A stretch of 64,000 nucleotides of DNA from Candidatus Tayloriibacteriota bacterium. Its GTDB lineage: Bacteria; Patescibacteriota; Minisyncoccia; Phycocordibacterales; PALSA-1337. Below are positions 6,101 through 21,174 of this stretch, piece by piece. The stretch is taken from positions 32,562 through 96,561 of the forward strand of contig CAITNV010000054.1 of assembly GCA_903893855.1 (NCBI GenBank). The letters are read 5' to 3'. A program made the position numbers and the translations under genes. Within the stretch, counting starts at the first letter, position 1, and each line of letters starts with the position of its first letter. Below the pieces are notes generated by a model that had not been told where the DNA came from, made no database searches, and was given only the letters and a program-made list of their open reading frames with translations.

Positions 6101-6341
6101 TTTATTTAATAGATTATTACTATTAGTCCTGTGGATATGGGGATAGATTTTTATTACCCATACATCGCTTCATATTTTACCTATTAGGATTTCCACAACC
6201 TGTGAATAAAATCTGTATAAAAAAATAATATATTTTTTTATAAAAAATTACCCACAAACCGCCAACACTCTTTGAACAACCTATAAACAATCTTTCAACA
6301 AGCTCCCCACAAGCTATCCACAGTCTTATCCACACCTTAAA
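6101..6341. other. Putative oriC: DnaA-box cluster plus an AT-rich putative DNA-unwinding element in the dnaA-dnaN intergenic region
   Basis: A perfect TTATCCACA lies at 6326-6334. Near-consensus boxes lie at 6314-6322 (cTATCCACA), 6248-6256 (TTAcCCACA) and 6130-6138 (reverse-complement aTATCCACA), with TTTCCACAA at 6190-6198. A nearly pure A/T run lies at about 6218-6250. Confidence 0.6.
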
Positions 6342-7688: not shown

Positions 7689-7854
7689 AGATAAATAATT
7701 TATAAAACAATTATATACCTGTTTATAAATTTAAAAACTTGTGGAAACAAAATTATCATGTTGATAAGGTGTTTATAAGTGAAAAATAATATCCTAACAG
7801 TATTCGGCAGTATTTGTTGCAGAAATGTTGTAATTAAGATATAGTTGTTCCACT
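7689..7854. promoter_or_regulatory. AT-rich dnaA upstream / rpmH upstream region with degenerate DnaA boxes
   Basis: TGTGGAAAC at about 7740-7748 is the reverse complement of a TTTCCACA core. TGTTGATAA at about 7759-7767 is the reverse complement of TTATCAACA. The region is very AT-rich and carries the divergent promoters for dnaA and rpmH. Confidence 0.4.
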
Positions 7855-7989
7855 ATGTCATTTACATACAATCCTAAGAAAAGAAAGCGCGCAAAGTCAC
7901 ACGGTTTTTTGGTCCGAAAGAAGACGACAGCTGGACGAAATGTCCTTAAGCGTCGCCGAGCTAAGGGTCGTAAGAAACTGTCAGTTTAA
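7855..7989 (+). CDS. rpmH: 50S ribosomal protein L34
   Basis: The 44-aa translation [44 protein letters not shown] is the conserved L34 sequence. It is too short for the ORF track. rnpA follows. Confidence 0.9.
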
Positions 7990-8026
7990 GCCGTATTTTA
8001 AGGTTTTTGTCCTATAAAATTATTAT

Positions 8027-8386
8027 ATGATTCCAAAAGATAGGAGATTAACTACTAAGCTATTGGATGAAGTAATCAAAACAGGGAGACTATTTCAGTC
8101 CCCTGTTTTGTCCTTGAGGGCTAGTAAGGTCACGTCGGGCAAAACCCGCTTTTCCACAGTTGCTTCAAAGAAGCATTTTAAGACCGCAGTTGAGAGAAAT
8201 AAAATACGCCGACGTCTTTATGTAGCTATCACTCCCCTATTGCCGGTTGTCGATAAAGAGTCTATAGACAATAACCGAACCTTCCACTGTATGATTGTAG
8301 CGAAACCTCAAGTGTTACGGCTTACTAAGGACGAGCTCGCAAAAGCCGTACAAGATATATTATTCGAATCTCGTATCCTGCAATAG
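8027..8386 (+). CDS. rnpA: Ribonuclease P protein component
   Basis: This basic 119-aa protein sits in the conserved rpmH-rnpA-yidC synteny. Confidence 0.8.
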   Translation: MIPKDRRLTTKLLDEVIKTGRLFQSPVLSLRASKVTSGKTRFSTVASKKHFKTAVERNKIRRRLYVAITPLLPVVDKESIDNNRTFHCMIVAKPQVLRLTKDELAKAVQDILFESRILQ

Positions 8387-8432
8387 TTTTATGCACGCTT
8401 GTTAATATTACCCGATAAAGTAAAATAGAGTT

Positions 8433-9206
8433 ATGTTTTCATATTTATACACAACATTTATCTTCGCTCCTCTTTATAACGGTCTAATTGCGCTTTTTGA
8501 TACGATTCCTTGGATTGATGCGGGTATAGCGGTGATACTCTTTACGATAATCGTTCGCCTTATCCTCTTCCCTCTTTCAAAAAGAGCTATTATCGCCCAA
8601 GTTAAGATGCGAGAACTTCAACCTGAGCTCGATAGAATCAAGATCGATTACAAAGACGATCGACAGAAGCAAGGCACGATGATGATGGAAATGTATAAAG
8701 AGAAAGGAATCCATCCTTTTTCGAGCGTTTTGTTGCTTTTTATTCAGTTGCCTATTATTTATGCTCTATATGGAGTATTTATTCATTCAGGCCTCCCTGT
8801 CGTAGATCACACACTTCTTTATTCTTTTATCAGTACACCGGTTATCAACATCCACTTCTTTGGCCTTTTTGATATTACAAAGCCAAGCCTCATTCTTTCT
8901 CTCGGTGCAGCAGTTGCTCAGTACCTACAGCTTGAATTTTCATTGAATGCGATGAAGTCTTCTGCTCCTGCGGCCAAGAATGGTGTTAAATCACAAGCAG
9001 ATATGGCTCAAAGTATGACCAATCAGATGAAATACATATTTCCAGTTGTTATTTTCTTCATCTCATATCGCCTTTCAGGAGTACTCTCACTGTATTGGAT
9101 TACAACAAACCTCTTCACGCTTGTTCAGGAGCTCGTAGTTCGCAAGAAATTAGCTCATAAGAAGACTCACGATGGACGGCCAGCGGTTCCACCAATTAGC
9201 ATTTAA
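8433..9206 (+). CDS. yidC: Membrane protein insertase YidC (short form)
   Basis: The 257-aa protein has multiple TM segments. It sits downstream of rnpA, and the conserved core resembles YidC/Oxa1. Confidence 0.85.
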   Translation: MFSYLYTTFIFAPLYNGLIALFDTIPWIDAGIAVILFTIIVRLILFPLSKRAIIAQVKMRELQPELDRIKIDYKDDRQKQGTMMMEMYKEKGIHPFSSVLLLFIQLPIIYALYGVFIHSGLPVVDHTLLYSFISTPVINIHFFGLFDITKPSLILSLGAAVAQYLQLEFSLNAMKSSAPAAKNGVKSQADMAQSMTNQMKYIFPVVIFFISYRLSGVLSLYWITTNLFTLVQELVVRKKLAHKKTHDGRPAVPPISI

Positions 9207-9227
9207 TACTATATAGAAGGGTGAAAA

Positions 9228-10514
9228 CTAAGAGTTAAGGTTGACTGACCAAAGTGTTAGGTCTCGCTTGTTGATGAAATATAGAACGTTTTCTTTTGGG
9301 TCTAGTGTTAAATTGGTAGCATCTAGTAATTCGCCAGGGAAATTAAGCATTGTAGCTATCTGGTGAGCCTCCCCTGTTGTGATATTAACCTCCCATATGC
9401 TATCGGTGAATGCGGTGTTGCCTTGATACCAATCTTCTGGATACTGGGCTGTTGGTATCGTAGATGGTACGGCACAAATAAGGTTGTCCTTCTTTATTGA
9501 GCTCCAAACACATTTCTCTGGCATGGTGTTGAAAGCAAGTTCTTGATCAGTTCCAGTTTTTACATCAAAAATTGATGATGACAGGGTCTGTCCGACAGAC
9601 TTAGTGTAGAGAATCTTGGTAGCGTCTTTGTTTGTAAGTGTCGCTAGGCCATTTATTCCGCCTAAAACCTTTGTAAATTGGCCCGTCTTCGTGTTCACGA
9701 AGTAAAGGAAGCCTGCAAGAGCTGAATTACCTTTGGTTGTAATCGCAAGTGTACTATCGGTCGGCCATTCAACATTGATATCTTTAAGTGGAGTAGAGAA
9801 TAATTTAATGGTTTTGGTACCATCAAATTGCGAAATATAGCCAGATCCGTCTGCGAGGCGGAATATTTTATCTGCAAGCGGAGATAATGCCAAAACCGTC
9901 GTGTTTGCAGGAAGGACATCCCCTTTTAGGACATATGGTGTATTCTTTGATATCGATGATGTTGCCGTGGTCGTTGCTTGAGTTGGTGATTTGCTTAAAG
10001 CTACATAAAAATTAGTAATCTTGGTTCCTGTATCATCGAGTGATTGAAAAACGAAAGCTGTTCCATTACGATTCCAGAAGCTTTGATATATCATCGGTAC
10101 GGTCGTGTTGGAAAGTAGAGTTGTATCAAGTGAATTCGATCGAGCTTCATACACATAGCCTGTGCCACGATTAACCCAGAGTACGAGCGTTGATGTTCCA
10201 CTTGTTGACGCCACCATTCCCCCAACCGGCGTAGTGCTCAATTCACGGATTGTAGGAATAGCTACTGTTGTAGAGGAACTATTTTGAGCATTTTGACCAG
10301 TATTGTTCGTAGTGTTACGTAGCGGTAAGGTGTTTTGTGTACGAGTCGTTCCATTAAGAGGTGTAAAGATATTCCCTCCCGAAGTAGTCGTGGTAGTAGT
10401 TGTACGAGTGTTAATAACACCAGAACCAAAATAATTATTGTAAATCCAATATCCTCCCCCAGCGAGGACTAGTACTAAAATGATTATTATGAGGATTGAG
10501 GTTTTTTTGGACAT
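9228..10514 (-). CDS. Hypothetical membrane-anchored protein: N-terminal TM, poly-Thr/Gly-Asn linker, and a C-terminal beta-propeller-like (PD40/WD40-like) domain. It is the last gene of the T4SS-like operon.
   Basis: The N-terminus MSKKTSILIIIILVLVLAGGGYWIY is a TM helix. A TTTTTTT run follows. The C-terminal half is a repetitive beta-strand-rich region. Confidence 0.6.
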   Translation of the reverse strand: MSKKTSILIIIILVLVLAGGGYWIYNNYFGSGVINTRTTTTTTTSGGNIFTPLNGTTRTQNTLPLRNTTNNTGQNAQNSSSTTVAIPTIRELSTTPVGGMVASTSGTSTLVLWVNRGTGYVYEARSNSLDTTLLSNTTVPMIYQSFWNRNGTAFVFQSLDDTGTKITNFYVALSKSPTQATTTATSSISKNTPYVLKGDVLPANTTVLALSPLADKIFRLADGSGYISQFDGTKTIKLFSTPLKDINVEWPTDSTLAITTKGNSALAGFLYFVNTKTGQFTKVLGGINGLATLTNKDATKILYTKSVGQTLSSSIFDVKTGTDQELAFNTMPEKCVWSSIKKDNLICAVPSTIPTAQYPEDWYQGNTAFTDSIWEVNITTGEAHQIATMLNFPGELLDATNLTLDPKENVLYFINKRDLTLWSVNLNS

Positions 10515-10526
10515 ATTTTGGTTTTA

Positions 10527-11579
10527 TTACTGACCAGGTAGGTAGCTTCCATGTTGTTGATTAGTTCCTGTTTTATTTGCATTTTTTTGCGCCGCCGCTT
10601 TGTCTGCAGCTGCCGCCGCAGCCATATCCGCTTGTTTCTTCAAGAATGGCGCTTGTGCAGCGTTATATGCAGCAGTTAACGCAGCTTGATCAGCCACATC
10701 GTTATTGGCTTTCAACGTTGCCATGTCTGCATTGTAGACTGCAGTATTTGCGTTTAAGCTTGATTGTATTAATTCAGGTGTTTCTATTCCATTATATTGA
10801 GTTGCGAGCTTTTCTCTTTCGAGAAGTGCATTTGCAGCGAAATCATTGGTAGCATGCGCAAAGGCTTCTTTATTTATTGATGCGGTAGCTGTGTCTTGCA
10901 GATTCTGCCATTTTTGTATAGCACCTTGGCAATCAGGTGTAAGAGAGTTTTCGTTCTGACTTCCATTACTTTCCAAACATTTCGAATTGATAAGATCGTT
11001 ATATGCTGTCGCTACTGCGGCATTATCGGTTGCTACTTTTGCTTGAAGTGCACGAGTTTCATTGGTAAGTTCAGCTGCTTGTGCAGCTAACGCAGCAACT
11101 GCAGCAGGATCACTGGTACTTATTGGTTGTACTGTCAAATTAAGCTTTGGTACGGTAACGAGGCTTATGTCTACGAGCTGAGGGTTAATGGTGTAGAGGA
11201 TAAGATATGATAGGAGTGCTCCAGCAAGGCCTAAGAAAGCGTTTTCTATCGTCGATCTCGCGTCCCCCTTCTTGGTCACTGAGTCGGTAAGCATGTATTG
11301 AAAACCGCCAATTATAACCATAACAACGGTTGCAAATACCGCAACCGCAATCATTAGTTTAAATATATAGACAATATATGTCTGTATATTGACTTCCTTC
11401 GTTACTTCGCCGAGTGTGCAGTTGTTCCCTGTTCCTGGGATGCATGGTACTGGTTCAAGAAGTGTATATTGTCCTGTTGTCTGTGCAGATACTATTAGGC
11501 TTGGTGCTGAAAGAGTGCCAAATATGACGATAATGCTACAGAGCGCAGAAACTTTTTTGATTATGTTTTGTGTAGACAT
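10527..11579 (-). CDS. Hypothetical pilin-like / VirB2-TrbC-like candidate: signal peptide, two hydrophobic helices, then an Ala/Gln/Asn-rich coiled-coil C-terminal region
   Basis: There is a signal peptide. TM helices lie at IVYIFKLMIAVAVFATVVMVIIGGFQYML and AFLGLAGALLSYLILYTINP, giving a hairpin topology like conjugative pilins. The Ala-rich tail is about 200 aa. Confidence 0.55.
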   Translation of the reverse strand: MSTQNIIKKVSALCSIIVIFGTLSAPSLIVSAQTTGQYTLLEPVPCIPGTGNNCTLGEVTKEVNIQTYIVYIFKLMIAVAVFATVVMVIIGGFQYMLTDSVTKKGDARSTIENAFLGLAGALLSYLILYTINPQLVDISLVTVPKLNLTVQPISTSDPAAVAALAAQAAELTNETRALQAKVATDNAAVATAYNDLINSKCLESNGSQNENSLTPDCQGAIQKWQNLQDTATASINKEAFAHATNDFAANALLEREKLATQYNGIETPELIQSSLNANTAVYNADMATLKANNDVADQAALTAAYNAAQAPFLKKQADMAAAAAADKAAAQKNANKTGTNQQHGSYLPGQ

Positions 11580-11587
11580 GTTTTTGA

Positions 11588-12649
11588 TTAAAATGTGATA
11601 CTAGCCGCGCCGTTAACTTTGTTCGAAGTGGTGTCGTATATTGCACTAAAAGAGTTATTTGCTCTTTGGAGGATGTCTGTAGTGTTTTGGATTTCGAGCT
11701 TAATATCAGAACTACCCGATGTTCCACTTGGTGTCGCGAGCAAAATTGCAGAGCTCGAAGCTAGTTCATCATGAAGAATTTCATTAATCATCCAGCTATA
11801 CGTCATGGTACCCGAATCGTCTGCCATATCGAAACCATAAGGTGCTGCAGTAATCTTAATTTGATTATGCTCAAGATTGATACTATCCCCTACTGACTTA
11901 TTATATAACACTCCATAGAGCGGGTCATTTTGATAAAAGTTAATTGCTGGAGATGACGGATTGATGGCGATTTGGCTTTCAGCGTGAGCCTTGCCATCAG
12001 TAGAATTTACTTTTAAGTTAATAACAAACGGTCGTGCTATTAATGAACCTTTTATCGAAAGGCTTTGTTTGCCATAACCTGAAAGACTGCCAAGTACGGT
12101 TGAATCCTGTTTCCATGTGTATATAAGAGCTTGAGGGTCAATTGGTTTGCCGTTTGAATCCACAAGGTTTGGCATTGCTACAAGCTTAACGGTATTTTGG
12201 TAAACAAAGAGATTTTTGCCTCGATATAAAGGGGGCACGTATCCACTCGTTTCAGGAATTATATCCACTGAGCCTGTTTTAATAGTAAGTACTTTTTGAA
12301 TTGTCGCACCTTCGACGGTCTTTACACTGACACTTATAGCTAGGCTTTTGCCAACAGGAGGAGCCTGCACGGTAATGCTTGTGAGGCCTACGCTTTTACC
12401 AATCGATTTACCGTTTGAAGACCAATTGATCGTAGCACCGTTTAGATCTGTGCTGTAGCTTTTTACGTCCACAGTGACACTATCCCCCGGTGCAGGGTTG
12501 GCTGGTGACATTTCAATATCGACTCCGTCAAGAGATACATTACCAATTGAAGATTGAGCATGTGAAACGTGCGGATTAGACAGGCTAAAGAAAGTAAAAA
12601 ATAGGATAAATATACTAATGTGCAGAACTAGAAATCCATTTTTTTTCAT
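11588..12649 (-). CDS. Hypothetical secreted protein (signal peptide; beta-rich, Ig-like repeats likely)
   Basis: The signal peptide is MKKNGFLVLHISIFILFFTFFSLSNPHVSHA. No recognisable catalytic motif is present. Confidence 0.55.
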   Translation of the reverse strand: MKKNGFLVLHISIFILFFTFFSLSNPHVSHAQSSIGNVSLDGVDIEMSPANPAPGDSVTVDVKSYSTDLNGATINWSSNGKSIGKSVGLTSITVQAPPVGKSLAISVSVKTVEGATIQKVLTIKTGSVDIIPETSGYVPPLYRGKNLFVYQNTVKLVAMPNLVDSNGKPIDPQALIYTWKQDSTVLGSLSGYGKQSLSIKGSLIARPFVINLKVNSTDGKAHAESQIAINPSSPAINFYQNDPLYGVLYNKSVGDSINLEHNQIKITAAPYGFDMADDSGTMTYSWMINEILHDELASSSAILLATPSGTSGSSDIKLEIQNTTDILQRANNSFSAIYDTTSNKVNGAASITF

Positions 12650-12686
12650 CTATATAATTCTACCACAACATACGCTGGATGTAATA

Positions 12687-13109
12687 CTACTTGCGAGGTA
12701 AACGCATTCCGTTATTGTTAACCGGAGGGGGTTGGAATTGTTGTCTATTTTTTGCTTGTATTGAGGCTGGTGTTGCTACGGTTGCGGCTGACGCTAAACG
12801 TTTGTTCTCGGCACGGACTGAGAGATGTGTCATTGCAACATCAAGTATCCACAATGGTAATGAACCAGCAACGAGCTCTTCAAAGAAGAAAGTTGCAACG
12901 AGTGTTAATATACGCCCCGGTTTAGCCATAGAAACACCTCTCCAGTAGAAATAACCTCCCAATATTGCACCAATCCCTGCATCGGCAAATTCGTTTATAA
13001 ATTCTCCAGGACCTGGGAAAAAAACATCAATAAGCGGTTGCCCAATATCACATGCCAATGTGAAGCAATAAAGTACTATCCAATCTACAGTTTTCATTTT
13101 TGAACCCAT
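12687..13109 (-). CDS. Small integral membrane protein (2-3 TM) immediately downstream of the VirB4-like ATPase
   Basis: The 140-aa protein has hydrophobic segments. It lies within the co-directional operon. Confidence 0.5.
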   Translation of the reverse strand: MGSKMKTVDWIVLYCFTLACDIGQPLIDVFFPGPGEFINEFADAGIGAILGGYFYWRGVSMAKPGRILTLVATFFFEELVAGSLPLWILDVAMTHLSVRAENKRLASAATVATPASIQAKNRQQFQPPPVNNNGMRLPRK

Positions 13110-13120
13110 TTTGTTGCGTT

Positions 13121-14947
13121 TTATATTCGAGCGGCACCGTTTGCCATTTCGAGCTCGTCTTTGGCTTTTTTAATAGCCATAACTTGTGCAGGATTCGTAG
13201 TAATAATCTGATCTTCTGTATACGAAGCGATGATTTTTAGTGCGACATGCTTAAGTCCTACGAAGAATATGCCCTCCCCCACTTCTGATTCAAGAAGTAG
13301 ATATTTCTCTTCATCAGTAAGGCTAAATGTCTGCTGAATTCTATCAATCGATGAAGGTGACTGTTTGAGGAGGATTTGTATCGAAGAGTTGGTAAGAATC
13401 GGCAAGCCATAGGGTGATTTCAAGAAGTCATCAACGTCTTGAGTGATTGTTGCAAGTCCTAAGTAATATTTTCGGCCTCGTTTAGCCAAACCAAGTAGGA
13501 ATGAAGCCGTATCTTCTGATTTCATCATCCACCAAGCCTCGTCAATAACAAGAAGACGCTTCTTTGGAGTACGACGAATAGCATTCCATATATAGTGTGT
13601 AACAATATACATTGCGACCGGCTTCAGTTCATCTTCCATATCGCGAAGTGAAAACACCGCAAATTTCTTATTAATATCCACATTTGTAGGCTTATTAATA
13701 AAGCCAGACCAAGTACCTTTGGTGTATTTCGTAAGTCTTTCGACGAGTGATTCAGCACCTTCCATGCCCGCCAAAACAAGCTCAAAGTCAGATAGAAGTG
13801 GCGGTGTCACATTACTAAAATCAGATTCAGGGGTGATATCCTTAAGTGCGTATGTTTCACTAATAGCTCGATCGATAATGGCATCTTCTTCCTGTGTAAG
13901 GCCACCAAGCATGATACGGAATAGCCCAACGAGGTTAATAATGTTAGATCGAAGCACATCAGAAGCGGCTTCGTCCTCTCGTGCGATCGGCAAGTCAAAA
14001 GGATTGATATGATTCTCTGAGTTAAGAGAGATATTGAAGTACTTCCCTCCTGTGGCATTCGCCATATACTCATATTCGCGTTCAGGGTCGATAACGATAA
14101 CTTCGGTATCGAACATAAGTGTTCGTAATATTTCGAGCTTGGTGCAATATGATTTACCCGATCCAGACTTAGCAAACGTTACTGAATTGTAGTTCTCGAG
14201 GAGGAAGCGGTCAAAAAGCACGAGAGATGAATTGTGGCGATTAATTCCATACAAAATACCCTTATCAGATGTGAGGTCGAATGAAACGAAAGGAAATATG
14301 CTCGAAAGTGGCGAAGAATTAAGCTTAGAATGTACTGAGAGTCGATCGTCTCCAAGCGGTAACACGCTTTTGTAACCATCTTCTTGCTGGAAAAGAGCAG
14401 GTTTTATATAAACAAGCTTAGACTCAAGGATAGATTTAACCTCAGACTCAAGCTTATCAAGTTCGCCATCAGAATCTCCAAAAAGAGTAATATAAACACC
14501 AACATCGAAGATTTTCTCTTGTGCTTGCATGAGATTATTACGAAGTGATTCGAGGTCTTGATATGCAGTGTCGAGCATTGGGTCACGAACGAGTCCTTTA
14601 TCCTCTCTTTGATTGATCTGGCTCTGTACTTCAGCCACCTTCTTCTGGAAATGACGTAGGATTTTAGCCGTATCTACCGGATGAATGAATATTGAAATGT
14701 TAAAAACCTTATCAAGGTTAATGATGGGGGCAAACCAAGAATCAGTAAGGAAACGTGGGTATGATATAACGAAGAATGTGCGCGCGACTTTCTCCCCGAG
14801 GTTAAGCTCTTTAGGACTAATCTTAAGTGCAGAAGGTGCAATAATGTCACGGAGTTCCAACACTCCCTGTTCATATATATCTTGTGGCAAAAGCGATGTT
14901 ATCGCAGGTGCATCTTTTTTACCAAATAATTTTCCTATAAAGCTCAT
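13121..14947 (-). CDS. VirB4/TrbE/CagE-family type IV secretion ATPase (Gram-positive PrgJ/TcpF-like)
   Basis: Walker A is AKSGSGKSY and Walker B is LLVIDEAWWMM. A conserved ...GLATITQD... motif is present. The protein is 608 aa and has an N-terminal domain ahead of the ATPase core. Confidence 0.8.
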   Translation of the reverse strand: MSFIGKLFGKKDAPAITSLLPQDIYEQGVLELRDIIAPSALKISPKELNLGEKVARTFFVISYPRFLTDSWFAPIINLDKVFNISIFIHPVDTAKILRHFQKKVAEVQSQINQREDKGLVRDPMLDTAYQDLESLRNNLMQAQEKIFDVGVYITLFGDSDGELDKLESEVKSILESKLVYIKPALFQQEDGYKSVLPLGDDRLSVHSKLNSSPLSSIFPFVSFDLTSDKGILYGINRHNSSLVLFDRFLLENYNSVTFAKSGSGKSYCTKLEILRTLMFDTEVIVIDPEREYEYMANATGGKYFNISLNSENHINPFDLPIAREDEAASDVLRSNIINLVGLFRIMLGGLTQEEDAIIDRAISETYALKDITPESDFSNVTPPLLSDFELVLAGMEGAESLVERLTKYTKGTWSGFINKPTNVDINKKFAVFSLRDMEDELKPVAMYIVTHYIWNAIRRTPKKRLLVIDEAWWMMKSEDTASFLLGLAKRGRKYYLGLATITQDVDDFLKSPYGLPILTNSSIQILLKQSPSSIDRIQQTFSLTDEEKYLLLESEVGEGIFFVGLKHVALKIIASYTEDQIITTNPAQVMAIKKAKDELEMANGAARI

Positions 14948-14955
14948 TTTTTTAT

Positions 14956-15615
14956 TTAATTTATTTGCATTGGCTTCTCAGTGTCCCCAGGGTTGAATAT
15001 CTTATAGAACAATTCTACCACTTCTTCGGTTCCAAGTTCAGCGACTCGTATACCGCAACGAGTAAGTCCTTGCTCCACTGAACCTACTCTCTGCTCGAGC
15101 TGGCTTCGGTATTCCTCGAATTCTTCATTTGCGAGGGTTTTACCACTTCCGATGCTTTGTGATGAACCTGTATTATTCTTTCGATTTAAGAATGAAGAAA
15201 TTGGGTTCTTCGTCGCACTAATCTGTGCAGGAGAATACGGGATGACGATGAAGAAGCTTTTTGTCATAATGCTTGAATTGTCGACGAAGGTTTTGACGAA
15301 TTCAATGTATTCTCGGGTTTGAATTTTCATGAGTTCGCTTGCCTGTTCCTTATAACGGCTTTCAAGAAGCGCAACATACGGCCTAATATCAAGCTTTTTT
15401 GACTGTATGAAGATCTGAACTGAGAAATCAAGAGAGTTTAAAAAGTTTTGAAATTGAAAAATAATAGAGTTCTGCTCATCTATTGACTTTAGGGCGAAGT
15501 TTACCGATGTTGCAAGGACGATTGCGCGCAAAGAACCGTCATTAAGAATAGCAATTCCATCACGGATCTCTTTAATTGGTACAAATTCTTGAGTTGTTTT
15601 GGTTGAAGTGGCCAT
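14956..15615 (-). CDS. Hypothetical protein resembling a VirB4 N-terminal domain (PIKEIRDGIAILNDGSLRAIV...NFALKS..EQ...FQNFLNSLDF..QIFIQS)
   Basis: The start was set at the internal Met MATSTKTTQEF, so it abuts the upstream gene's stop. The sequence pattern matches the N-terminus of Gram-positive VirB4-like proteins. The following 608-aa VirB4 has its own N-domain. Confidence 0.5.
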   Translation of the reverse strand: MATSTKTTQEFVPIKEIRDGIAILNDGSLRAIVLATSVNFALKSIDEQNSIIFQFQNFLNSLDFSVQIFIQSKKLDIRPYVALLESRYKEQASELMKIQTREYIEFVKTFVDNSSIMTKSFFIVIPYSPAQISATKNPISSFLNRKNNTGSSQSIGSGKTLANEEFEEYRSQLEQRVGSVEQGLTRCGIRVAELGTEEVVELFYKIFNPGDTEKPMQIN

Positions 15616-15616
15616 A

Positions 15617-16078
15617 TTAACGTTGATTTCTATTACTATAGAGACTTTCTTTAATATCGAGACTCCATGCAAGGTCTTTCAATTTACTTTCTGAAATCTT
15701 CGGCACCATAATACCCGCATAATTCTTGCCGAGGCGTACATCTTCCGCCGCTTGTTCCCCCGGAGTCATATTCTTCTGTAGTGCAGGATCTGGACGGCGA
15801 TTTACTTTCTTCCAGATGTAGAGTTTGGCAGCGAAGTAGTATTTGAATGCCGCTTCAACAACAAAAATGAATGGTTTATTGTTGATTCTATAGAAAGCGA
15901 GGGCCCCAGAAAAAGTAGCAACTACAACTATAAACGGGAATGCAAGGAGTAATGGTAAAAATTTATACAATAGGAAACAAATTCCAGCCCCACCAGCCAT
16001 ATAAATAAATTGGCGCAAGGTGAATGGGCCGAAAATCTTGTCCTCAACTTCGATAAATTGTGGGACTTGGAACTGCAT
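15617..16078 (-). CDS. PrgI/VirB3-like small membrane protein
   Basis: The N-terminus MQFQVPQFIEVEDKIFGPFTLRQFIYMAGGAGICFLLYKFLP is followed by a second TM. This is characteristic of the PrgI family, which is encoded just upstream of VirB4 in Gram-positive T4SS. Confidence 0.6.
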   Translation of the reverse strand: MQFQVPQFIEVEDKIFGPFTLRQFIYMAGGAGICFLLYKFLPLLLAFPFIVVVATFSGALAFYRINNKPFIFVVEAAFKYYFAAKLYIWKKVNRRPDPALQKNMTPGEQAAEDVRLGKNYAGIMVPKISESKLKDLAWSLDIKESLYSNRNQR

Positions 16079-16098
16079 GCGTATATTATACCCTACTC

Positions 16099-16749
16099 TT
16101 ACGCGATTGGCTCGCGGTATGGATCAGAAGTAGTGTTCGGCGTTTGAGGTTGAGGGTTTTTTGTTGTCACGGGAGCGGACATGAATTGATCGAGGAGATT
16201 GATAGACTTTACCGCAGGTGCTGGAGCTGTTGCAGGAGCGGATACAGGTGTTGCTATTGGGGTTGGGACAGTGTGCGCTTCCTGACCAGCGACAATTGCT
16301 GGATATTCCGCGAGGAGATTTACAGGAGTTGGTGTTGCAGTATTCTGTGCGAGCGTGGTCGGATTTTCAATTCCTTTTAGGGTATTTGCACGAGCAATTG
16401 CTTCATTGTCCAACTTTTCGTCATCATTCGTATCTTCGAGTTTTTGTAGGCTCTCACGAATACTACCAATTATATCAGTGTTTATGTCACCAGCTATATC
16501 TCTCGCTGTCTCTCTTGGGATCTCGACGTTATCACTTAGATTTGAAATTAAATTATTAGAACTTTCAAGGCCAAGCATGACAAGCATCGTCTCGGTCTGT
16601 ATGTCCCCAGCTTGTTCTATGGTTAAGGCGTATTTTTTTGATATTTTAGCAAATTTCTCAGGAAGGTTTCCTCCTGTTATCGCATCTTGAATCTCTCGGG
16701 GAAGAAGCTCAAAGTTTTTTTTAATTAATTGTTGTGTTTCAGGTTCCAT
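16099..16749 (-). CDS. Hypothetical protein (no TM; Pro/Thr/Ala-rich C-terminus) within the T4SS-like operon
   Basis: The 216-aa protein is co-directional and tightly spaced with its neighbours. Confidence 0.5.
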   Translation of the reverse strand: MEPETQQLIKKNFELLPREIQDAITGGNLPEKFAKISKKYALTIEQAGDIQTETMLVMLGLESSNNLISNLSDNVEIPRETARDIAGDINTDIIGSIRESLQKLEDTNDDEKLDNEAIARANTLKGIENPTTLAQNTATPTPVNLLAEYPAIVAGQEAHTVPTPIATPVSAPATAPAPAVKSINLLDQFMSAPVTTKNPQPQTPNTTSDPYREPIA

Positions 16750-16755
16750 ATTGTA

Positions 16756-18573
16756 TTATTTTTTATCTGGTTTGTTTTTTGCATCACCGTCACTTTTTTC
16801 TTCGGTTAGCAGATCTTTTATATCATCTGCAATTTTTTCATTTTTTGATTTATTCATTCCTTTACGGATCTTATTGGCGGCATCTTTCCTGCCCTTTTTG
16901 GTCATGTTAAAGAAGCCTGCACCCTTTTCAAGATTATTAGCGTATTCCTCCTTGCCTTGCTTTGACAGCCTACCTTGAATATCTGTATCATCGACAGCTC
17001 TTTCCGATGCCTCTTTTTTTGCAGCATCCATTACAGCTTTTAGTCTTTCTGCACGTGCCGCTTCTTCCGCTCTCTCTCGAGCGCTTAAATTGCTATCTGT
17101 AGATCTAGATGCTGCCAGATTATACAAGCGCTCTTTTTTGTTGGCTTCATATTCTAACCTCTTTGTCTCTTTCTTATACTCGTCAGGAGTTATTCTTGAT
17201 AGTGCGCGATCGGCAAACTTTGTTTGTGATTCAGTATATTTTTTTAATCTGTCACTATAGCCGCCTTTTGAGCCGCCAAATGTAGCATTCGTAGTCCTTG
17301 AAACTATTTGTTTATCTACAAGGTTTCCGATAGTAGGATTAGAAGTAACAAATCTTTTGAATTTATCATTATCAGCAACATATTTGGCACCCCTTCCAAT
17401 TGTGTGTTGGCCGACCCAACCTGCACTACCGCTTACGCCGCTTGTAAGCTTCCCTTGTCCCCATTTCTTAGCGCTCTGGCCTAATTTAACTGCGATATCA
17501 GTTCCATCTGAACCAATTTTAATTGCAGCCGCCATCGGGGCATTGATAAACATAAAGGCAATGATGTATTGGAGGACGATACCGACAACATTTGGAGAGA
17601 CGAGAGCATTACCGAGTGTGCCAGTTGTCGAAGATACTTTTGCAAAATCAAAGAAACGTGGATCATTAATAACGCTAACCGCAACATACATAAGAAATAG
17701 ATACACCGGCATAAAGAGACACATTGCAATGAGTGTCTTTTTCCACTGCTCGGCGTATTGCTCTGCTTGTGGCAATATCATAGCGATGAAATAGATCGGC
17801 GAGAAAGCCATGAGAAGGATAAGAATTCCTAGTCGTACTGCGAATGCCACCGCCGCAAAGAGGAAGCTTCCTGCTGCAGCAAGCATAAGGACTGTTCCTC
17901 CGGCATACGCAAGGGTAATCGTACGGTTATTATTAGGATCTCCCCCACCATTTGGAGCAATAGCGCTAGCTCCAACGATCTTGTTGATACTCAAGCTCTG
18001 CATGAATACATTCGATAGACCTCCATCGTTAAACGCTGAAGATATCATTCCATTAAAGCCGTTAGTTGCAGCCACGGTATCTTGTCCGGGGGCAATAGCG
18101 TTATAGAACGATAGCGATATGATGTTTGAAGTATCTACTGCGAGCCGAGTAAAGAAAAGGCTGAAGTTAATAAGGAGACCAGCAATAATAATATTTTTAA
18201 TTAGCGTAGAAAGATCCGCGTTCTTTAGCCCTAAAATCATCTTGATTGAAGCATACAGAAGCATGAATATTATGAATATGCTCGAGAAGTCTCGAATGGT
18301 TCTCCATGCAATACCAATTGCCGTTACTTTATCGACGATAGTTTGAATGTGAAGAGTAGCTACAAGTGTTCCATTGAGAAGCACTCCAGTGAGGGTCAAA
18401 ATTGCTCCAGCTGCAGCGAATGCTAGTTCGGCGATCCATGATGTTACTGTAAATATGGTCGCTGTAACATCAATACCCAAAAATGCATACGCAAAGTGCG
18501 GCGTAATAAGCGTCAATAACGGTATCGCGATTGCAACAGCGGTAATTATTTTTTTGTACGAGTTGCTTTTCAT
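16756..18573 (-). CDS. VirB6/TrbL-like polytopic membrane protein with a long Lys/Glu-rich C-terminal hydrophilic tail
   Basis: A signal-like N-terminus is followed by at least 6 predicted TM helices and an about 230-aa charged tail. This architecture is typical of VirB6/TrbL and the Gram-positive PrgH/TcpH proteins. Confidence 0.6.
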   Translation of the reverse strand: MKSNSYKKIITAVAIAIPLLTLITPHFAYAFLGIDVTATIFTVTSWIAELAFAAAGAILTLTGVLLNGTLVATLHIQTIVDKVTAIGIAWRTIRDFSSIFIIFMLLYASIKMILGLKNADLSTLIKNIIIAGLLINFSLFFTRLAVDTSNIISLSFYNAIAPGQDTVAATNGFNGMISSAFNDGGLSNVFMQSLSINKIVGASAIAPNGGGDPNNNRTITLAYAGGTVLMLAAAGSFLFAAVAFAVRLGILILLMAFSPIYFIAMILPQAEQYAEQWKKTLIAMCLFMPVYLFLMYVAVSVINDPRFFDFAKVSSTTGTLGNALVSPNVVGIVLQYIIAFMFINAPMAAAIKIGSDGTDIAVKLGQSAKKWGQGKLTSGVSGSAGWVGQHTIGRGAKYVADNDKFKRFVTSNPTIGNLVDKQIVSRTTNATFGGSKGGYSDRLKKYTESQTKFADRALSRITPDEYKKETKRLEYEANKKERLYNLAASRSTDSNLSARERAEEAARAERLKAVMDAAKKEASERAVDDTDIQGRLSKQGKEEYANNLEKGAGFFNMTKKGRKDAANKIRKGMNKSKNEKIADDIKDLLTEEKSDGDAKNKPDKK

Positions 18574-18580
18574 ACTGGTA

Positions 18581-20152
18581 TTAGTTTACACCATTATTCG
18601 CAGTCGGGCTAAATGTCTGACAAGCATAGAGCCGGTTATTTGCATCTGACTGTATTGGATCGATGGTAGAACGCAATGTGGTTAGATCTGTATTTGATTG
18701 GGTTACTGCTGCAGTTGACGGAAGGTTACCACTCGCCGCTAAGCCCTGTAACTGCTGGCTTGGATCATTGAGGCCGGTTGCGTTCTGGGCGTCTGAGAAT
18801 TTATTTGCAAGATCAATCAATGATTGATATGAAGAGCTTGCATTGTTGTATTTTACGGTGCTCTGGGCTACAAGAGGCGCGACTTGGGTAAGAATTATAG
18901 TGTTAATCTGGTCTAGCTGACCTTGAGCATGAGCGACCGCAAGTGCATTCGTTTGATTACCTACACCGTAACTTGGTTGTGAGTACTTTGTAATCAAATC
19001 GTTGTTACAACTTTGTGCTTTATTGAGTGTCGTTTGTGCAGCAAGTACAATGTTGAGGCCTACTTGGGCGTTCTGTGTTACTTGTTGAGCATTGTTTAAA
19101 TACGGCTGTATATTATTAATCGTAGACGCCTGTACAGATTGAAGATTATTGCTCTGCTCAGCTTGTATTTGCTGAACATACGCGGTGTTACTTGTTCCAT
19201 TTGAACCGCTAATTGCACCAAGGCCACTCTTAAGTGCAATAAGAACGAGCTGAGAGAAAGCGGCATTAATAATCGCATTAATATCATTTGCGAGTTCAAG
19301 CTCATCAGTTGGTACGCCGAGACTTTTATTAAGTGTGGCCGAAATAGCGCTTCCTGGTGTCTGAACCTCACAATCCTGTCCTGTACCTTGGCCCGAATAG
19401 TCTTCTGGATCGTCAGTACATTTTTCGAAAGAAAGAAAGCCGTTCGCACTTAAAACAAAGTTTTGTTTTAAGGTGACTTGTTGGCCGATTTTTGCATTGA
19501 GATCACTTTGTGCAAGAAGAAATGCACCATTTGGATTGTTTGCTGGTACTGTGGTTAACGTAAGAAATGCCGGCCATCCTCCTTGTCGGAAATCACCAGC
19601 CGTAAAGCCATTTATTGAAGCACCTTTAACGGCGTTCTTTGTATTCTTTACCATGTCACTTAATGTACATGTATAGGGGTTTTTGATTCCTCCCGACATC
19701 TCGAGTGCTAGAGAGATTCGAACACTTATATTAAATGGGCTACAAAGGCTCGCCGCGAGAGGGCTGACACTTGAGAGGAATTTACCCGCAATCTGATCAC
19801 CCACTCCTTCGAAGAATTTTGTTGGATTCTGGATAAAAGAAGGGCTACCATTAAAACCTGAGTTAATCCAAGAGATTATACTAAGGGTTAATTGTTGAAG
19901 TATTTGCTTCACAATCATTACCGCTACTTTATCGAGGCTAAAAGATTTTAGTTGAAGTAATGACTCGGATTGTGCGGATACTCCAGCAGATGCTGCAATT
20001 GTACTAGTGTTTGTTTCTACAAGTATGTCTGAGACGATGTCCCCCGCTCCAAACAATGCATCAACCTTTTTTGGTGCATAAAGTTGTGAGCTTGCAAGTA
20101 CAACAAGCGCGAAGGATATAATGATTGATGTTTTTTTAAAAAAGAAATTCAT
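18581..20152 (-). CDS. Hypothetical secreted Gln/Asn/Ser/Thr-rich protein (523 aa)
   Basis: The signal peptide is MNFFFKKTSIIISFALVVLASSQLYA. The protein is low-complexity Q/N-rich and has a few Cys residues. Confidence 0.55.
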   Translation of the reverse strand: MNFFFKKTSIIISFALVVLASSQLYAPKKVDALFGAGDIVSDILVETNTSTIAASAGVSAQSESLLQLKSFSLDKVAVMIVKQILQQLTLSIISWINSGFNGSPSFIQNPTKFFEGVGDQIAGKFLSSVSPLAASLCSPFNISVRISLALEMSGGIKNPYTCTLSDMVKNTKNAVKGASINGFTAGDFRQGGWPAFLTLTTVPANNPNGAFLLAQSDLNAKIGQQVTLKQNFVLSANGFLSFEKCTDDPEDYSGQGTGQDCEVQTPGSAISATLNKSLGVPTDELELANDINAIINAAFSQLVLIALKSGLGAISGSNGTSNTAYVQQIQAEQSNNLQSVQASTINNIQPYLNNAQQVTQNAQVGLNIVLAAQTTLNKAQSCNNDLITKYSQPSYGVGNQTNALAVAHAQGQLDQINTIILTQVAPLVAQSTVKYNNASSSYQSLIDLANKFSDAQNATGLNDPSQQLQGLAASGNLPSTAAVTQSNTDLTTLRSTIDPIQSDANNRLYACQTFSPTANNGVN

Positions 20153-20158
20153 TATATT

Positions 20159-21088
20159 TTAATGTAAATTTGGCGCAATGATATATCCCGCTTCAGTTGG
20201 TGTGAATGTGATATTTGCTGATTTCAAATATTGACCGACCTCAGTTAGGGCATTTGAAAGATCTAGAACACCTTTTTGATATGCACTAAGTCCCGCAAGA
20301 CTTGTAATGCCGTCAGAATATACTTTCGCTAGGCTTTCATCGGCAAATACTATTTCATTCATTGCATTTACGAGATCAACATGAATTTTTGTTAGCGCTG
20401 ACGGTGCCGGAGTTGCGATAAAATTTTTTAAAATGTTTTGATACGAAGTGATGATCGGGTCGAGCTGTTTGAGCAAGTCAGGGTTCTTTGTATTGAGGCT
20501 GTTTTGCACAATTTCCGGTTCGTATGAATGAATTGTGGTGTTAGCCTTGATGACGGTGACAATAGAATTAACGTATCTTTTAATCGAAATGACGCTATTA
20601 TCAGGTGTAATTAAGATATCTTTTGAGGTGTAAACTTTCGGAGTCGCAATATATGTCCCATCGGCCAAGACCTGATTAGTGATCTGTTGTTGAATTTGCG
20701 GGTCATTAAAATTAACTCCTGCCTTTTGGTATTCAGCATATTTTGAAAAGAGATCTCGGCTAAAAAGGTCAGTCGCCGTAAGGTTAGTTTGTACTGGTGC
20801 CGCTTTCCCTGTTGCCCATGTTGAACTAGCTCCGAGTGTTCCAGAAAGAGACTTTTGCCAATTACCCTCATATGCAACAAGTGAGTTTTGTATAGATGTT
20901 GTAGCGGTCATAATTGCTTTATTGAGCGTAGCAACCTGCTGCTGTTGAGCAACACTCGCATCATTTTGGTATTTTGAAACCACAAAAGCACCAAGGATAA
21001 TAAGGACAGCAGTCGTAATTAGTATAAAGTTTTTAGCGCTAGGTTGTTTCAAGGCGTGTAGCTGGCTAGTAATTTGCATATAGAGCAA
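20159..21088 (-). CDS. Hypothetical bitopic membrane protein (short cytoplasmic N-terminus, one TM, about 260-aa extracytoplasmic domain). Its topology is VirB8-like, but no similarity is claimed. It is the first gene of the T4SS-like operon.
   Basis: The TM is FILITTAVLIILGAFVV. The upstream 21089-21174 region is AT-rich and promoter-like. Confidence 0.5.
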   Translation of the reverse strand: MLYMQITSQLHALKQPSAKNFILITTAVLIILGAFVVSKYQNDASVAQQQQVATLNKAIMTATTSIQNSLVAYEGNWQKSLSGTLGASSTWATGKAAPVQTNLTATDLFSRDLFSKYAEYQKAGVNFNDPQIQQQITNQVLADGTYIATPKVYTSKDILITPDNSVISIKRYVNSIVTVIKANTTIHSYEPEIVQNSLNTKNPDLLKQLDPIITSYQNILKNFIATPAPSALTKIHVDLVNAMNEIVFADESLAKVYSDGITSLAGLSAYQKGVLDLSNALTEVGQYLKSANITFTPTEAGYIIAPNLH

Positions 21089-21174
21089 ATTACATAGATG
21101 CCACTAAAATTATAACAAATATATATAGCTAATAATAGAGATAAACTGCTGTTTTTAAGCGTTTATGTGGAAAA

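What the first reader, a model, noticed from the sequence alone, without database searches (positions are those of the whole stretch)
13121..15615. Extra VirB4-N-terminal-domain-like gene upstream of a full-length VirB4
The 608-aa VirB4 already has an about 270-aa N-terminal domain (LLPQDIYEQGVLELRDI...) before its Walker A. The separate about 219-aa protein just upstream carries an even clearer VirB4-N-domain signature (VPIKEIRDGIAILNDGSLRAIV...NFALKS..EQ...FQNFLNSLDF.VQIFIQS). The PrgI-like gene lies directly upstream of it. This looks like a duplicated or split N-domain. Such a domain could act as a separate assembly factor, like membrane-tethering modules in some T4SS, or could be a fission remnant.
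Basis: seen in the sequence. Interest (0 to 1): 0.5.

Follow-up and report, generated by a model that had tools for sequence, protein, structure and literature searches.

The report
VirB4 secretion ATPase split in two
The small gene is not an extra copy of the VirB4 N-terminal domain but the detached first ~215 residues of VirB4 itself, a conserved two-gene arrangement (TrsD/TraD-type protein plus shortened VirB4) already described for Patescibacteria and some Gram-positive plasmids.

Summary

The "extra/duplicated N-domain" reading fails.
- The 219-aa protein matches only the first ~125-200 positions of full-length VirB4 profiles.
- The 608-aa protein starts at about position 185 of the same profiles.
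- Both align end to end on single ~790-aa fused VirB4 proteins of a Colwellbacteria-like clade (residues 1-214, then 226-796).
- The two window proteins show no detectable similarity to each other.

So this is one VirB4 encoded in two pieces.

The split is not a frameshift. In 71 of 71 species-level relatives with both genes complete, the ORFs are separate. Spacers run from -7 to 213 nt and all three frame offsets occur.

It is the TrsD/TraD type (Pfam "TraC-like", PF26593). TrsD homologues next to virB4 were reported in 2025 as the most abundant T4SS component of Patescibacteria, and the one in Southlakia epibionticum is listed as essential.

The likely mechanism is inferred, not shown: the 219-aa module binds the shortened VirB4 non-covalently and completes the N-terminal domain that docks on PrgI/VirB3.

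Verdict: real, ordinary, already known. The small additions here are the explicit tiling and the re-fused clade.

The parts
15617..16078 (-). PrgI-family (VirB3-like) membrane protein, 153 aa. It is the first gene of the conserved PrgI -> N1 module -> VirB4 triplet.
   Evidence: Pfam PF12666 PrgI E 1.7e-9, 38.6 bits, above the cutoff of 27. It has hydrophobic segments: 20 windows of 19 residues exceed Kyte-Doolittle 1.6. A PrgI homologue lies upstream of the TrsD-like ORF in nearly all of the 80 related loci.
14956..15615 (-). TrsD/TraD-type 'TraC-like' protein, 219 aa, soluble. It is the detached first ~215 residues (called N1 here) of the VirB4 N-terminal domain.
   Evidence: Sequence:
- NCBIfam: residues 9-131 match CD1110 VirB4 profile positions 2-125 of 752; residues 4-144 match VirB4_plasma 100-250 of 894; residues 5-125 match TrsD/TraD 12-142 of 201.
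- The precomputed Pfam family is PF26593 TraC-like.
- It is 40% identical to residues 1-214 of the fused VirB4 P0166, E 3.6e-52.
- The family profile hits S. aureus TrsD residues 33-217 and L. paracasei VirB4 residues 44-136 plus 153-206.

Structure and composition:
- No transmembrane segment is predicted.
14948..14955 (-). 8-nt spacer (ATAAAAAA) between the TAA stop of the 219-aa gene and the ATG of the 608-aa gene. The two ORFs are in different frames.
   Evidence: Sequence read. In orthologues this spacer ranges from -7 to 213 nt, and spacer length mod 3 is 0, 1 or 2 in 15, 31 and 25 loci. The junction is therefore not a recent frameshift.
13121..14947 (-). Shortened VirB4 ATPase, 608 aa. 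It comprises the second half of the VirB4 N-terminal domain (N2, roughly residues 28-250) and the RecA-like ATPase C-terminal domain.
   Evidence: NCBIfam:
- CD1110 VirB4, E 7e-111, 371.7 bits, above the cutoff of 325; residues 29-568 match profile positions 184-732 of 752.
- VirB4_CagE: residues 84-553 match positions 271-726 of 792.

Other matches:
- Pfam P-loop_TraG 2.9e-26.
- PDB 4ag5, the VirB4 C-terminal domain, 4e-40.
- 54% identity to P0166 residues 226-796.
14150..14164 (-). Walker A motif (GSGKS, residues 262-266) of the 608-aa VirB4.
   Evidence: Motif search.
13538..13555 (-). Walker B motif (LLVIDE, residues 465-470) of the 608-aa VirB4.
   Evidence: Motif search.
9228..21088 (-). 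Surrounding run of ten further minus-strand genes, taken here as the chromosomal T4SS-like cluster. It includes a 605-aa gene (16756-18573) and a 350-aa protein with a weak T4SS-pilin match (10527-11579). The cluster lies next to yidC, dnaA and dnaN. This is context only and the boundaries were not tested.
   Evidence: ORF list. Pfam T4SS_pilin E 0.0031, below the cutoff. Other cluster members have no family hits. dnaA is at 6342-7688, dnaN at 4994-6100 and yidC at 8433-9206.

Best explanation
The 219-aa gene and the 608-aa gene together encode one VirB4 in two polypeptides. The 219-aa protein is a TrsD/TraD-type 'TraC-like' module. It corresponds to the first ~215 residues (N1) of the VirB4 N-terminal domain. 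The 608-aa protein is the rest: the second half of the N-terminal domain plus the ATPase domain.

The two genes are packed tightly behind the PrgI/VirB3-like gene, with 1-nt and 8-nt spacers, and are probably co-translated.

Inferred mechanism: N1 binds the shortened VirB4 non-covalently and rebuilds the complete N-terminal domain. In the solved R388 machine this domain is the surface that VirB3 wraps around, and it mediates VirB4-VirB4 dimer contacts. The reconstituted domain would therefore dock the ATPase hexamer on the PrgI membrane anchor of this origin-proximal Patescibacteria T4SS.

Shown here: homology, collinear tiling, a conserved split, and fusion in a sister clade. Inferred: physical association, stoichiometry and the PrgI-docking role.
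For: Tiling on profiles:
- The 219-aa protein covers CD1110 VirB4 profile positions 2-125, and the 608-aa protein covers positions 184-732.
- My own family profiles hit the L. paracasei 818-aa VirB4 at residues 44-136 plus 153-206 (219-aa family) and at 229-772 (608-aa family).

Tiling on natural fusions:
- At least 118 protein clusters of ~780-807 aa, several named Colwellbacteria or Patescibacteria by their sources, carry PF26593 plus the ATPase domains in one chain.
- The window proteins align to P0166 residues 1-214 (40% identity) and 226-796 (54% identity).
- A fused gene sits in the same context, PrgI upstream and yidC/dnaA nearby, in L088.

Structure:
- The model of the 219-aa protein alone finds only TrwK/VirB4 chains as its top 14 Foldseek hits.

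The split is old and maintained:
- Separate ORFs occur in 71 of 71 species-representative loci, with variable spacers and frames.
- About 8000 homologues were scored, and the 120 listed are 210-234 aa long.
- 149 of the best 150 representatives at 50% clustering are shorter than 450 aa; only P0166 is VirB4-length.
- The same PrgI -> homologue -> short VirB4 triplet occurs on Geobacillus, Clostridium perfringens and Miltoncostaea plasmids. S. aureus pWBG615 carries trsD directly upstream of a 672-aa DUF87-annotated VirB4 homologue.

Literature:
- TrsD shares remote homology with the VirB4 N-terminal portion. It is the most abundant T4SS component in Patescibacteria, with 1,664 of 2,272 homologues next to virB4, and is listed as essential in Ca. 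Southlakia epibionticum (PMC12102498).
- VirB3 wraps the VirB4 N-terminal domain, and VirB4 dimer contacts are mediated by the N-terminal domains (PMC9259494).
Against: - No direct evidence shows that the two polypeptides bind each other or PrgI. No multimer prediction or coordinates were available.
- The NCBIfam matches of the 219-aa protein are far below the curated cutoffs: 26-38 bits against 200-590.
- The local Pfam copy gave nothing significant for it, and PDB sequence searches found nothing.
- Many standalone homologues have acquired extras: long low-complexity C-terminal tails or an N-terminal hydrophobic segment in Firmicutes. This hints that the detached module may have gained functions of its own.
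- The split-form VirB4 carries a conserved 27-residue N-terminal extension that the fused forms lack and whose role is unknown.
Confidence: 0.8

Rival explanations
1. Duplicated extra N-domain. The 608-aa VirB4 is complete, and the 219-aa protein is a paralogous additional copy of its N-domain that acts as a separate assembly factor.
For: - The N1 and N2 regions of the fused AF2 model show the same order of 11 secondary-structure elements: b-b-b-a-b-a-a-b-a-b-a.
- A weak local match recurs at the equivalent strand-helix element: 219-aa profile positions 65-99 against 608-aa residues 81-115 and TrsE residues 83-116, E 0.06-0.43.
Against: - There is no significant similarity: BLASTP E 0.43 and hhalign probability 0.2-0.3% with alignments of Neff 1.5 and 4.3.
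- The 608-aa protein lacks roughly the first 185 positions of every full-length VirB4 profile. The 219-aa protein supplies exactly those positions.
- Fused relatives contain one copy of each region, in order, not two N1 copies.
- Any duplication would predate VirB4 diversification and would be a feature of all VirB4 proteins, not an 'extra' gene here.
Confidence: 0.04
2. Frameshift, sequencing error or decaying fission remnant. The ancestral gene was a single VirB4, and the split in this genome is an artefact or a pseudogenisation.
For: - Fused ~790-aa versions exist among Patescibacteria.
- The two ORFs are 8 nt apart, in different frames, next to a run of seven A's.
- One apparently split relative (P0289) turned out to be an assembly artefact caused by a scaffold gap of 100 N's.
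Against: - Separate ORFs occur in 71 of 71 independent species-level genomes, with spacers from -7 to 213 nt and all three frame offsets.
- An identical protein and gene order occur on an independent ENA contig.
- The small protein is highly conserved, with a mean column identity of 79% and many invariant residues up to its last residue.
- The stop codon precedes the A-run, so slippage there could not join the two frames.
- The split-form VirB4 has its own conserved N-terminal 27 residues.
Confidence: 0.02
3. Neofunctionalised detached module. It descends from the VirB4 N-terminus, but the TrsD-like protein now works mainly on its own, for example as a regulator, chaperone or substrate/partner receptor. 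It may be present at a stoichiometry different from VirB4, rather than simply completing the VirB4 fold.
For: - The split has persisted across Patescibacteria and several Gram-positive plasmid lineages.
- Standalone homologues have acquired long disordered tails (356-443 aa proteins) or an N-terminal hydrophobic segment (Geobacillus and C. perfringens).
- TrsD homologues in Gracilibacteria are mostly not adjacent to virB4 (PMC12102498).
Against: - A nested clade has re-fused the module to VirB4 in the original order with only an ~11-residue linker. This argues that the two parts still work as one unit at 1:1.
- The fused model superposes on TrwK over 624 residues.
- The tight gene packing favours co-expression.
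Confidence: 0.14

Closest known systems
TrsD (S. aureus pGO1/pSK41-type plasmids) and TraD (pIP501): NCBIfam NF041427, TrsD/TraD family conjugative transfer protein
   Same: - It is a standalone protein of ~200-230 aa. In pWBG615 it is encoded directly upstream of a shortened VirB4 (a 672-aa protein annotated as DUF87-containing) and directly downstream of a 135-aa hypothetical gene.
- It is homologous to the window protein over its whole length: profile positions 8-200 match TrsD residues 33-217. The NCBIfam TrsD model hits the window protein at 9.7e-7.
- Remote homology of TrsD to the VirB4 N-terminus has been published (PMC12102498, citing PMC4027160).
   Different: - It is plasmid-borne and part of a true conjugation operon that includes a relaxase and a coupling protein.
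- Sequence similarity is low. The window protein scores 28.8 bits against the family cutoff of 200, so it is not a member of that NCBIfam family as curated.
Patescibacteria TrsD homologues next to virB4 (Quinonero-Coronel et al. 2025, PMC12102498), including the essential T4SS locus of Ca. Southlakia epibionticum ML1 (Wang et al. 2023, PMC10633639)
   Same: - Same phylum, and a chromosomal, origin-proximal T4SS cluster. In this window dnaA, dnaN and yidC are adjacent.
- A TrsD homologue is associated with VirB4 and PrgI.
- No relaxase was seen among the cluster genes scanned against Pfam.
- The window locus is an ordinary instance of what that paper catalogues.
   Different: As far as I read it, the paper calls TrsD a separate component with 'remote homology' and no assigned function. 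It does not state that TrsD plus the short VirB4 tile one full VirB4. It does not mention the fused TrsD-VirB4 proteins: a search of its text for 'fused' and 'fusion' returned only VirB3-VirB4.
Canonical one-piece VirB4 (R388 TrwK, PDB 7O41/7O42; Gram-positive CD1110/PrgJ type)
   Same: - The two window proteins together cover the whole profile.
- The Walker A and Walker B motifs are intact.
   Different: The protein is encoded as two polypeptides, cut about 215 residues in, inside the N-terminal domain (TrwK residues 15-400). [quoted passage not shown]
VirB3-VirB4 fusion proteins of some conjugative systems (mentioned in PMC12102498)
   Same: They show that the covalent linkage among the VirB3 / VirB4-N-terminus / VirB4-ATPase modules varies between T4SSs.
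   Different: The direction is opposite (fusion rather than fission). No VirB3-VirB4 fusions were found in Patescibacteria.
pIP501 TraI/TraJ two-protein coupling protein (PMC4981023)
   Same: It is another T4SS ATPase in the same plasmid class, described as consisting of two separately encoded proteins.
   Different: It is a different ATPase (VirD4-type). It is an analogy only, and no homology was tested.

Membership tests
TrsD/TraD family (NCBIfam NF041427) | Score at or above the curated cutoff of the family HMM (200 bits) | tested here: not met
   28.8 bits, E 9.7e-7; residues 5-125 match profile positions 12-142 of 201. The protein is homologous but outside the curated family.
TrsD/TraD family (NCBIfam NF041427) | Standalone protein of ~200-230 aa encoded immediately upstream of a shortened (~600-670 aa) VirB4 and downstream of a VirB3-like gene | tested here: met
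   In the window, PrgI (153 aa), the 219-aa protein and the 608-aa protein follow each other with 1-nt and 8-nt spacers. In pWBG615, a 135-aa hypothetical gene, TrsD (227 aa) and a 672-aa DUF87-annotated VirB4 homologue follow each other.
Pfam PF26593 'TraC-like' domain | Match to the family HMM | tested here: inconclusive
   The family is listed as a precomputed hit for the identical protein and for all 120 listed homologues. The Pfam copy I could scan returned no such family for this protein, only sub-threshold TraC_F_IV at E 0.059. I could not reproduce the score.
VirB4 family (the two ORFs taken together) | The N-terminal region of VirB4 is present | tested here: met
   - The 219-aa protein matches CD1110 profile positions 2-125 and VirB4_plasma positions 100-250.
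- It matches L. paracasei VirB4 residues 44-206 and fused P0166 residues 1-214 at 40% identity.
- The Foldseek top 14 PDB hits are all TrwK.
VirB4 family (the two ORFs taken together) | Second half of the N-terminal domain plus a RecA-like ATPase domain with Walker A and B motifs; score above a curated VirB4 cutoff | tested here: met
   - The 608-aa protein scores 371.7 bits on NF045971 (CD1110 family), above the cutoff of 325, over profile positions 184-732.
- It matches 4ag5 at 4e-40.
- GSGKS is at residues 262-266 and LLVIDE at 465-470.
VirB4 family (the two ORFs taken together) | A single polypeptide of ~780-830 aa | tested here: not met
   There are two ORFs in different frames, and this state is conserved in 71 of 71 related loci. 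One-piece versions exist only in a separate clade.
Patescibacteria chromosomal T4SS (MPF-FATA-related; PMC12102498) | virB4 with PrgI/VirB3, TrsD and pilin-like genes nearby; chromosomal and often near dnaA; no relaxase in the cluster | tested here: met
   - PrgI and the TrsD-like gene are adjacent.
- There is a weak T4SS_pilin match at 10527-11579.
- dnaA, dnaN and yidC lie within 6 kb.
- No relaxase family appeared among the scanned neighbours.
- The closest genomes are titled Taylorbacteria, Paceibacteria or Patescibacteria.
- The relaxase absence rests on Pfam scans of the neighbours only.
Heteromeric (two-chain) VirB4 complex | Physical association of the 219-aa and 608-aa proteins, and contact with PrgI | not testable with these tools
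   Only monomer prediction was available and no coordinates were returned. The association is inferred from the fused relatives and from the R388 structure.

The most novel reading that the evidence does not exclude
The VirB4 N-terminal domain may itself be an ancient tandem repeat of one ~190-residue alpha/beta module (N1 and N2). Gene fission in the TrsD-type lineages, and the later re-fusion in the Colwellbacteria-like clade, would then cut and rejoin exactly at the repeat boundary. It would also make N1 an autonomous, exchangeable docking module. In split systems N1 could then be loaded at a stoichiometry different from the ATPase, for example to distinguish VirB3-bound 'central' from VirB8-bound 'outside' VirB4 subunits.

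The evidence so far is thin. The two regions share an identical order of 11 secondary-structure elements in the AF2 model. A non-significant local match recurs at the equivalent strand-helix element.
Probability: 0.15. Interest if true: 0.45.

Novelty: already known. Interest (0 to 1): 0.2.

Why it matters
VirB4 is the one universal T4SS protein, and the Patescibacteria T4SS is reported to be essential for their epibiotic life. Annotators and modellers should therefore treat TrsD plus the short VirB4 as one functional ATPase, not as a 608-aa 'VirB4' beside an unknown protein. This matters when building phylogenies, HMMs or structural models.

The natural series runs from fused (canonical VirB4) to split (TrsD type) to re-fused (Colwellbacteria-like clade). 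It gives a ready-made experimental handle on what the first 200 residues of VirB4 do. For this particular window, though, nothing goes beyond what has been published for thousands of Patescibacteria genomes.

Tried and rejected
- Direct similarity between the two window proteins. BLASTP and hhalign with narrow and diverse alignments found nothing significant, so duplication was rejected.
- PDB sequence searches with the 219-aa protein and with its family profile returned no hits.
- The local Pfam scan of the 219-aa protein gave only sub-threshold TraC_F_IV and FRD2 matches.
- An apparent close split relative of the fused clade (P0289, 600 aa) looked like evidence for recent toggling between states. 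It is an artefact of a 100-N scaffold gap inside the N1 region of L089.
- Programmed frameshifting at the A-run before the 608-aa ATG was considered. It is rejected because the TAA stop precedes the run and the junction differs in every orthologue.
- The promoter and terminator scan of 9000-21500 gave counts no higher than shuffled sequence, so it is uninformative.
- The AlphaFold-database fold library was unavailable.
- The neighbour-joining tree used to polarise fission against fusion has no bootstrap support and is only indicative.
Full report
**What is there**

On the minus strand, the finding's interval holds two ORFs. One is a 219-aa ORF (ATG at 15615, ending at 14956) and the other a 608-aa ORF (14947-13121). 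A longer TTG-initiated reading of the first ORF, from 15672, overlaps the upstream gene. It is not supported, because orthologues start at the same MATxSKTTQ.

Directly upstream lies a 153-aa PrgI-family (VirB3-like) membrane protein at 15617-16078 (Pfam 1.7e-9, above the cutoff). Its TAA stop is 1 nt from the ATG of the 219-aa gene. The TAA of the 219-aa gene is followed by 8 nt (ATAAAAAA) and then the ATG of the 608-aa gene, which is in another frame.

The 608-aa protein is a VirB4. It scores 371.7 bits on the NCBIfam CD1110 family (cutoff 325), matches Pfam P-loop_TraG at 2.9e-26, and matches the PDB 4ag5 VirB4 C-terminal domain at 4e-40. Walker A is at residues 262-266 and Walker B at 465-470. 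The descriptive part of the finding is therefore correct.

**Extra copy or missing piece?**

The profile coordinates decide this.
- Residues 9-131 of the 219-aa protein match positions 2-125 of the 752-position CD1110 VirB4 model. Residues 4-144 match positions 100-250 of the 894-position mycoplasma VirB4 model.
- Residues 29-568 of the 608-aa protein match positions 184-732 of the same CD1110 model, and it enters the VirB4_CagE model at position 271 of 792.
- I built profiles from the two families and searched real full-length proteins. On the 818-aa L. paracasei VirB4, the 219-aa family covers residues 44-136 and 153-206, and the 608-aa family covers residues 229-772.
- The two window proteins have no significant similarity to each other. 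BLASTP gives E 0.43. hhalign gives a probability of 0.3% with narrow alignments and 0.2% with alignments of Neff about 4.3.

The 608-aa protein therefore does not already have the domain that the small protein carries. It lacks it, and the small protein supplies it.

**Natural fusions**

An exhaustive search of 1.84 billion representatives found 2,322 relatives of the 219-aa protein. Of the best 150, 149 are shorter than 450 aa (146-443 aa). One, P0166, is 797 aa long and carries the domain at residues 6-215.

Searching with P0166 found at least 118 clusters of 775-807 aa at 59-100% identity. Several are named Colwellbacteria or Patescibacteria by their sources. All carry PF26593 plus the ATPase domains in one chain.

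The window proteins align collinearly on P0166. The 219-aa protein (residues 1-214) matches residues 1-214 at 40% identity (E 3.6e-52). The 608-aa protein (residues 28-597) matches residues 226-796 at 54% identity. Only 11 residues of P0166 lie between the two matches.

A fused gene sits in the same genomic setting in L088, with PrgI upstream and yidC, rnpA, rpmH, dnaA and dnaN alongside.

One seemingly split close relative of the fused clade (P0289) is an artefact of a 100-N scaffold gap.

**Structure**

**Is the split real and maintained?**

Yes.
- A scan of one genome per GTDB species returned 434 confirmed relatives. I analysed the best 80, whose titles name Taylorbacteria, Paceibacteria, Parcubacteria and similar groups.
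- Both genes are complete in 71 of these loci, and in all 71 they are separate ORFs.
- The spacer from the stop of the first gene to the homologous start of the second ranges from -7 to 213 nt, with a median of 8 nt. Spacer length mod 3 is 0, 1 or 2 in 15, 31 and 25 loci.
- The identical protein and gene order occur on an independent ENA contig.
- The small protein is strongly conserved, with a mean column identity of 79% and invariant residues through to the C-terminal Q-I-N.
- The split-form VirB4 has its own conserved 27-residue N-terminal extension.
- A frameshift or decaying remnant is therefore excluded. The stop codon precedes the A-run, so slippage there is irrelevant.

**Where else it occurs and what is known**

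The same triplet, PrgI -> homologue (312-337 aa) -> 'DUF87' VirB4 (636-661 aa), occurs on plasmids of Geobacillus, Clostridium perfringens and the actinobacterium Miltoncostaea. Overall, 275 plasmid records match, mostly from Bacillus.

S. aureus pWBG615 carries trsD (227 aa) directly upstream of a 672-aa DUF87-annotated VirB4 homologue. My diverse profile aligns to TrsD over its whole length, and the NCBIfam TrsD/TraD model hits the window protein at 9.7e-7.

The literature already covers this. Quinonero-Coronel et al. [quoted passage not shown] They count 2,272 homologues, 1,664 of them next to virB4. They list the one in Ca. Southlakia epibionticum as essential, assign no function, and note that the clusters often lie near dnaA (PMC12102498).

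In this window the cluster lies beside yidC (8433-9206), dnaA (6342-7688) and dnaN (4994-6100). The locus is therefore a typical member of a published class.

I did not find two points in that paper. One is an explicit statement that TrsD and the short VirB4 tile one VirB4. The other is any mention of the fused TrsD-VirB4 clade. These are modest increments.

**Direction of evolution (indicative only)**

I built a neighbour-joining tree of the N1 domain, rooted on the L. paracasei VirB4 N-terminus and TrsD. The plasmid standalone proteins branch at the base. The fused clade is nested 15 nodes deep among standalone Patescibacteria proteins (no bootstrap).

This suggests that fission preceded the Patescibacteria radiation and that the Colwellbacteria-like fusion is secondary.

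**How it most likely works**

Shown: the two ORFs are the N-terminal ~215 residues and the remainder of one VirB4. They are co-located with PrgI, and relatives function with the two parts covalently joined.

[quoted passage not shown] The central-outside VirB4 dimer interface is formed entirely by N-terminal domains (PMC9259494).

Inferred: the soluble 219-aa module, which has no predicted transmembrane segment, binds the 608-aa protein and completes that domain. It thereby contributes to docking on PrgI and/or to VirB4-VirB4 contacts. The tight spacing favours co-expression at matched levels.

The main alternative is that the detached module has gained autonomous roles. Tails and hydrophobic segments in some homologues, and non-adjacent TrsD genes in Gracilibacteria, point that way. 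I cannot exclude it (confidence 0.14).

**An unexplained detail**

In the fused model, N1 (residues 14-207) and N2 (residues 239-391) show the same order of 11 secondary-structure elements. The only recurrent, non-significant sequence match between the families falls on the equivalent strand-helix element.

This may mean that the VirB4 N-terminal domain is an ancient tandem repeat, cut here at the repeat boundary. There is no statistical support, and I could not superpose coordinates.

**Verdict**

The feature is real and the coordinates are correct. The biology has already been described, so interest is low (0.2).

Noticed in passing
L088:3453-5852 (GCA_030700125.1, JAUYKE010000021.1); proteins P0166, P0271-P0389: A Colwellbacteria-like clade of Patescibacteria (at least 118 protein clusters of 775-807 aa) encodes the TraC-like/TrsD module and the VirB4 ATPase as one polypeptide, in the same PrgI-upstream, dnaA-proximal context. 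In an unbootstrapped NJ tree the clade nests among split forms. I did not find these fusions mentioned in the 2025 Patescibacteria T4SS survey.
   Followed up: partly
L089:1213-1667 (GCA_964368705.1, CAYJCP010000001.1): The '600-aa VirB4' P0289 looks like a split relative of the fused clade, but it results from a 100-N scaffold gap inside the N1 region. tblastn recovers residues 1-89 upstream of the gap and 193-796 downstream.
   Followed up: yes
AF2 model m2b45d00b7501 of P0166: residues 14-207 versus 239-391 (in the window, the 219-aa protein versus residues ~40-200 of the 608-aa protein): The two halves of the VirB4 N-terminal domain show the same order of 11 secondary-structure elements (b-b-b-a-b-a-a-b-a-b-a). 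A weak, non-significant sequence match recurs at the equivalent strand-helix element. This may reflect an ancient internal repeat.
   Followed up: partly
window 4994-9206: dnaN (4994-6100, -), dnaA (6342-7688, -) and yidC (8433-9206, +) lie immediately beside the T4SS-like cluster, with a class A PBP at 2094-4715. The cluster is therefore chromosomal and next to dnaA, as reported for many Patescibacteria.
   Followed up: yes
proteins P0153, P0187, P0211 (356-443 aa); L082:4878-5834 and L083:4881-5819: Some standalone TrsD-like homologues carry long low-complexity Pro/Gln/Ala-rich C-terminal tails. The Geobacillus and C. perfringens plasmid versions begin with a hydrophobic, probably membrane-spanning, segment. 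The window protein has neither.
   Followed up: no
window 13121-14947, residues 1-27 of the 608-aa protein: The split-form VirB4 has a conserved N-terminal extension (MSxxxKLFGKK...SLxPQxIYE) with no counterpart in the fused proteins. Its role is unknown; it could be a docking peptide for the detached module.
   Followed up: partly
window 44925-45019 (-): ARAGORN calls a 95-nt tRNA-SeC (anticodon TCA) that lies within the span of the plus-strand ORF at 44422-45084. It is probably a false positive.
   Followed up: no
window 10527-11579 (-) and 9228-10514 (-): The 350-aa protein has a sub-threshold T4SS_pilin match at residues 65-129, followed by a long Ala/Gln/Asn-rich C-terminal region. The neighbouring 428-aa protein begins with a hydrophobic segment and a poly-Thr run. 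They may be pilin-like or surface components of the cluster.
   Followed up: no
L068:6643-8450 (CAWJEP010000001.1): In one related genome the best VirB4 ORF downstream of the TrsD-like gene is only 254 aa (matching residues 346-596). This suggests a disrupted or mis-assembled virB4.
   Followed up: no
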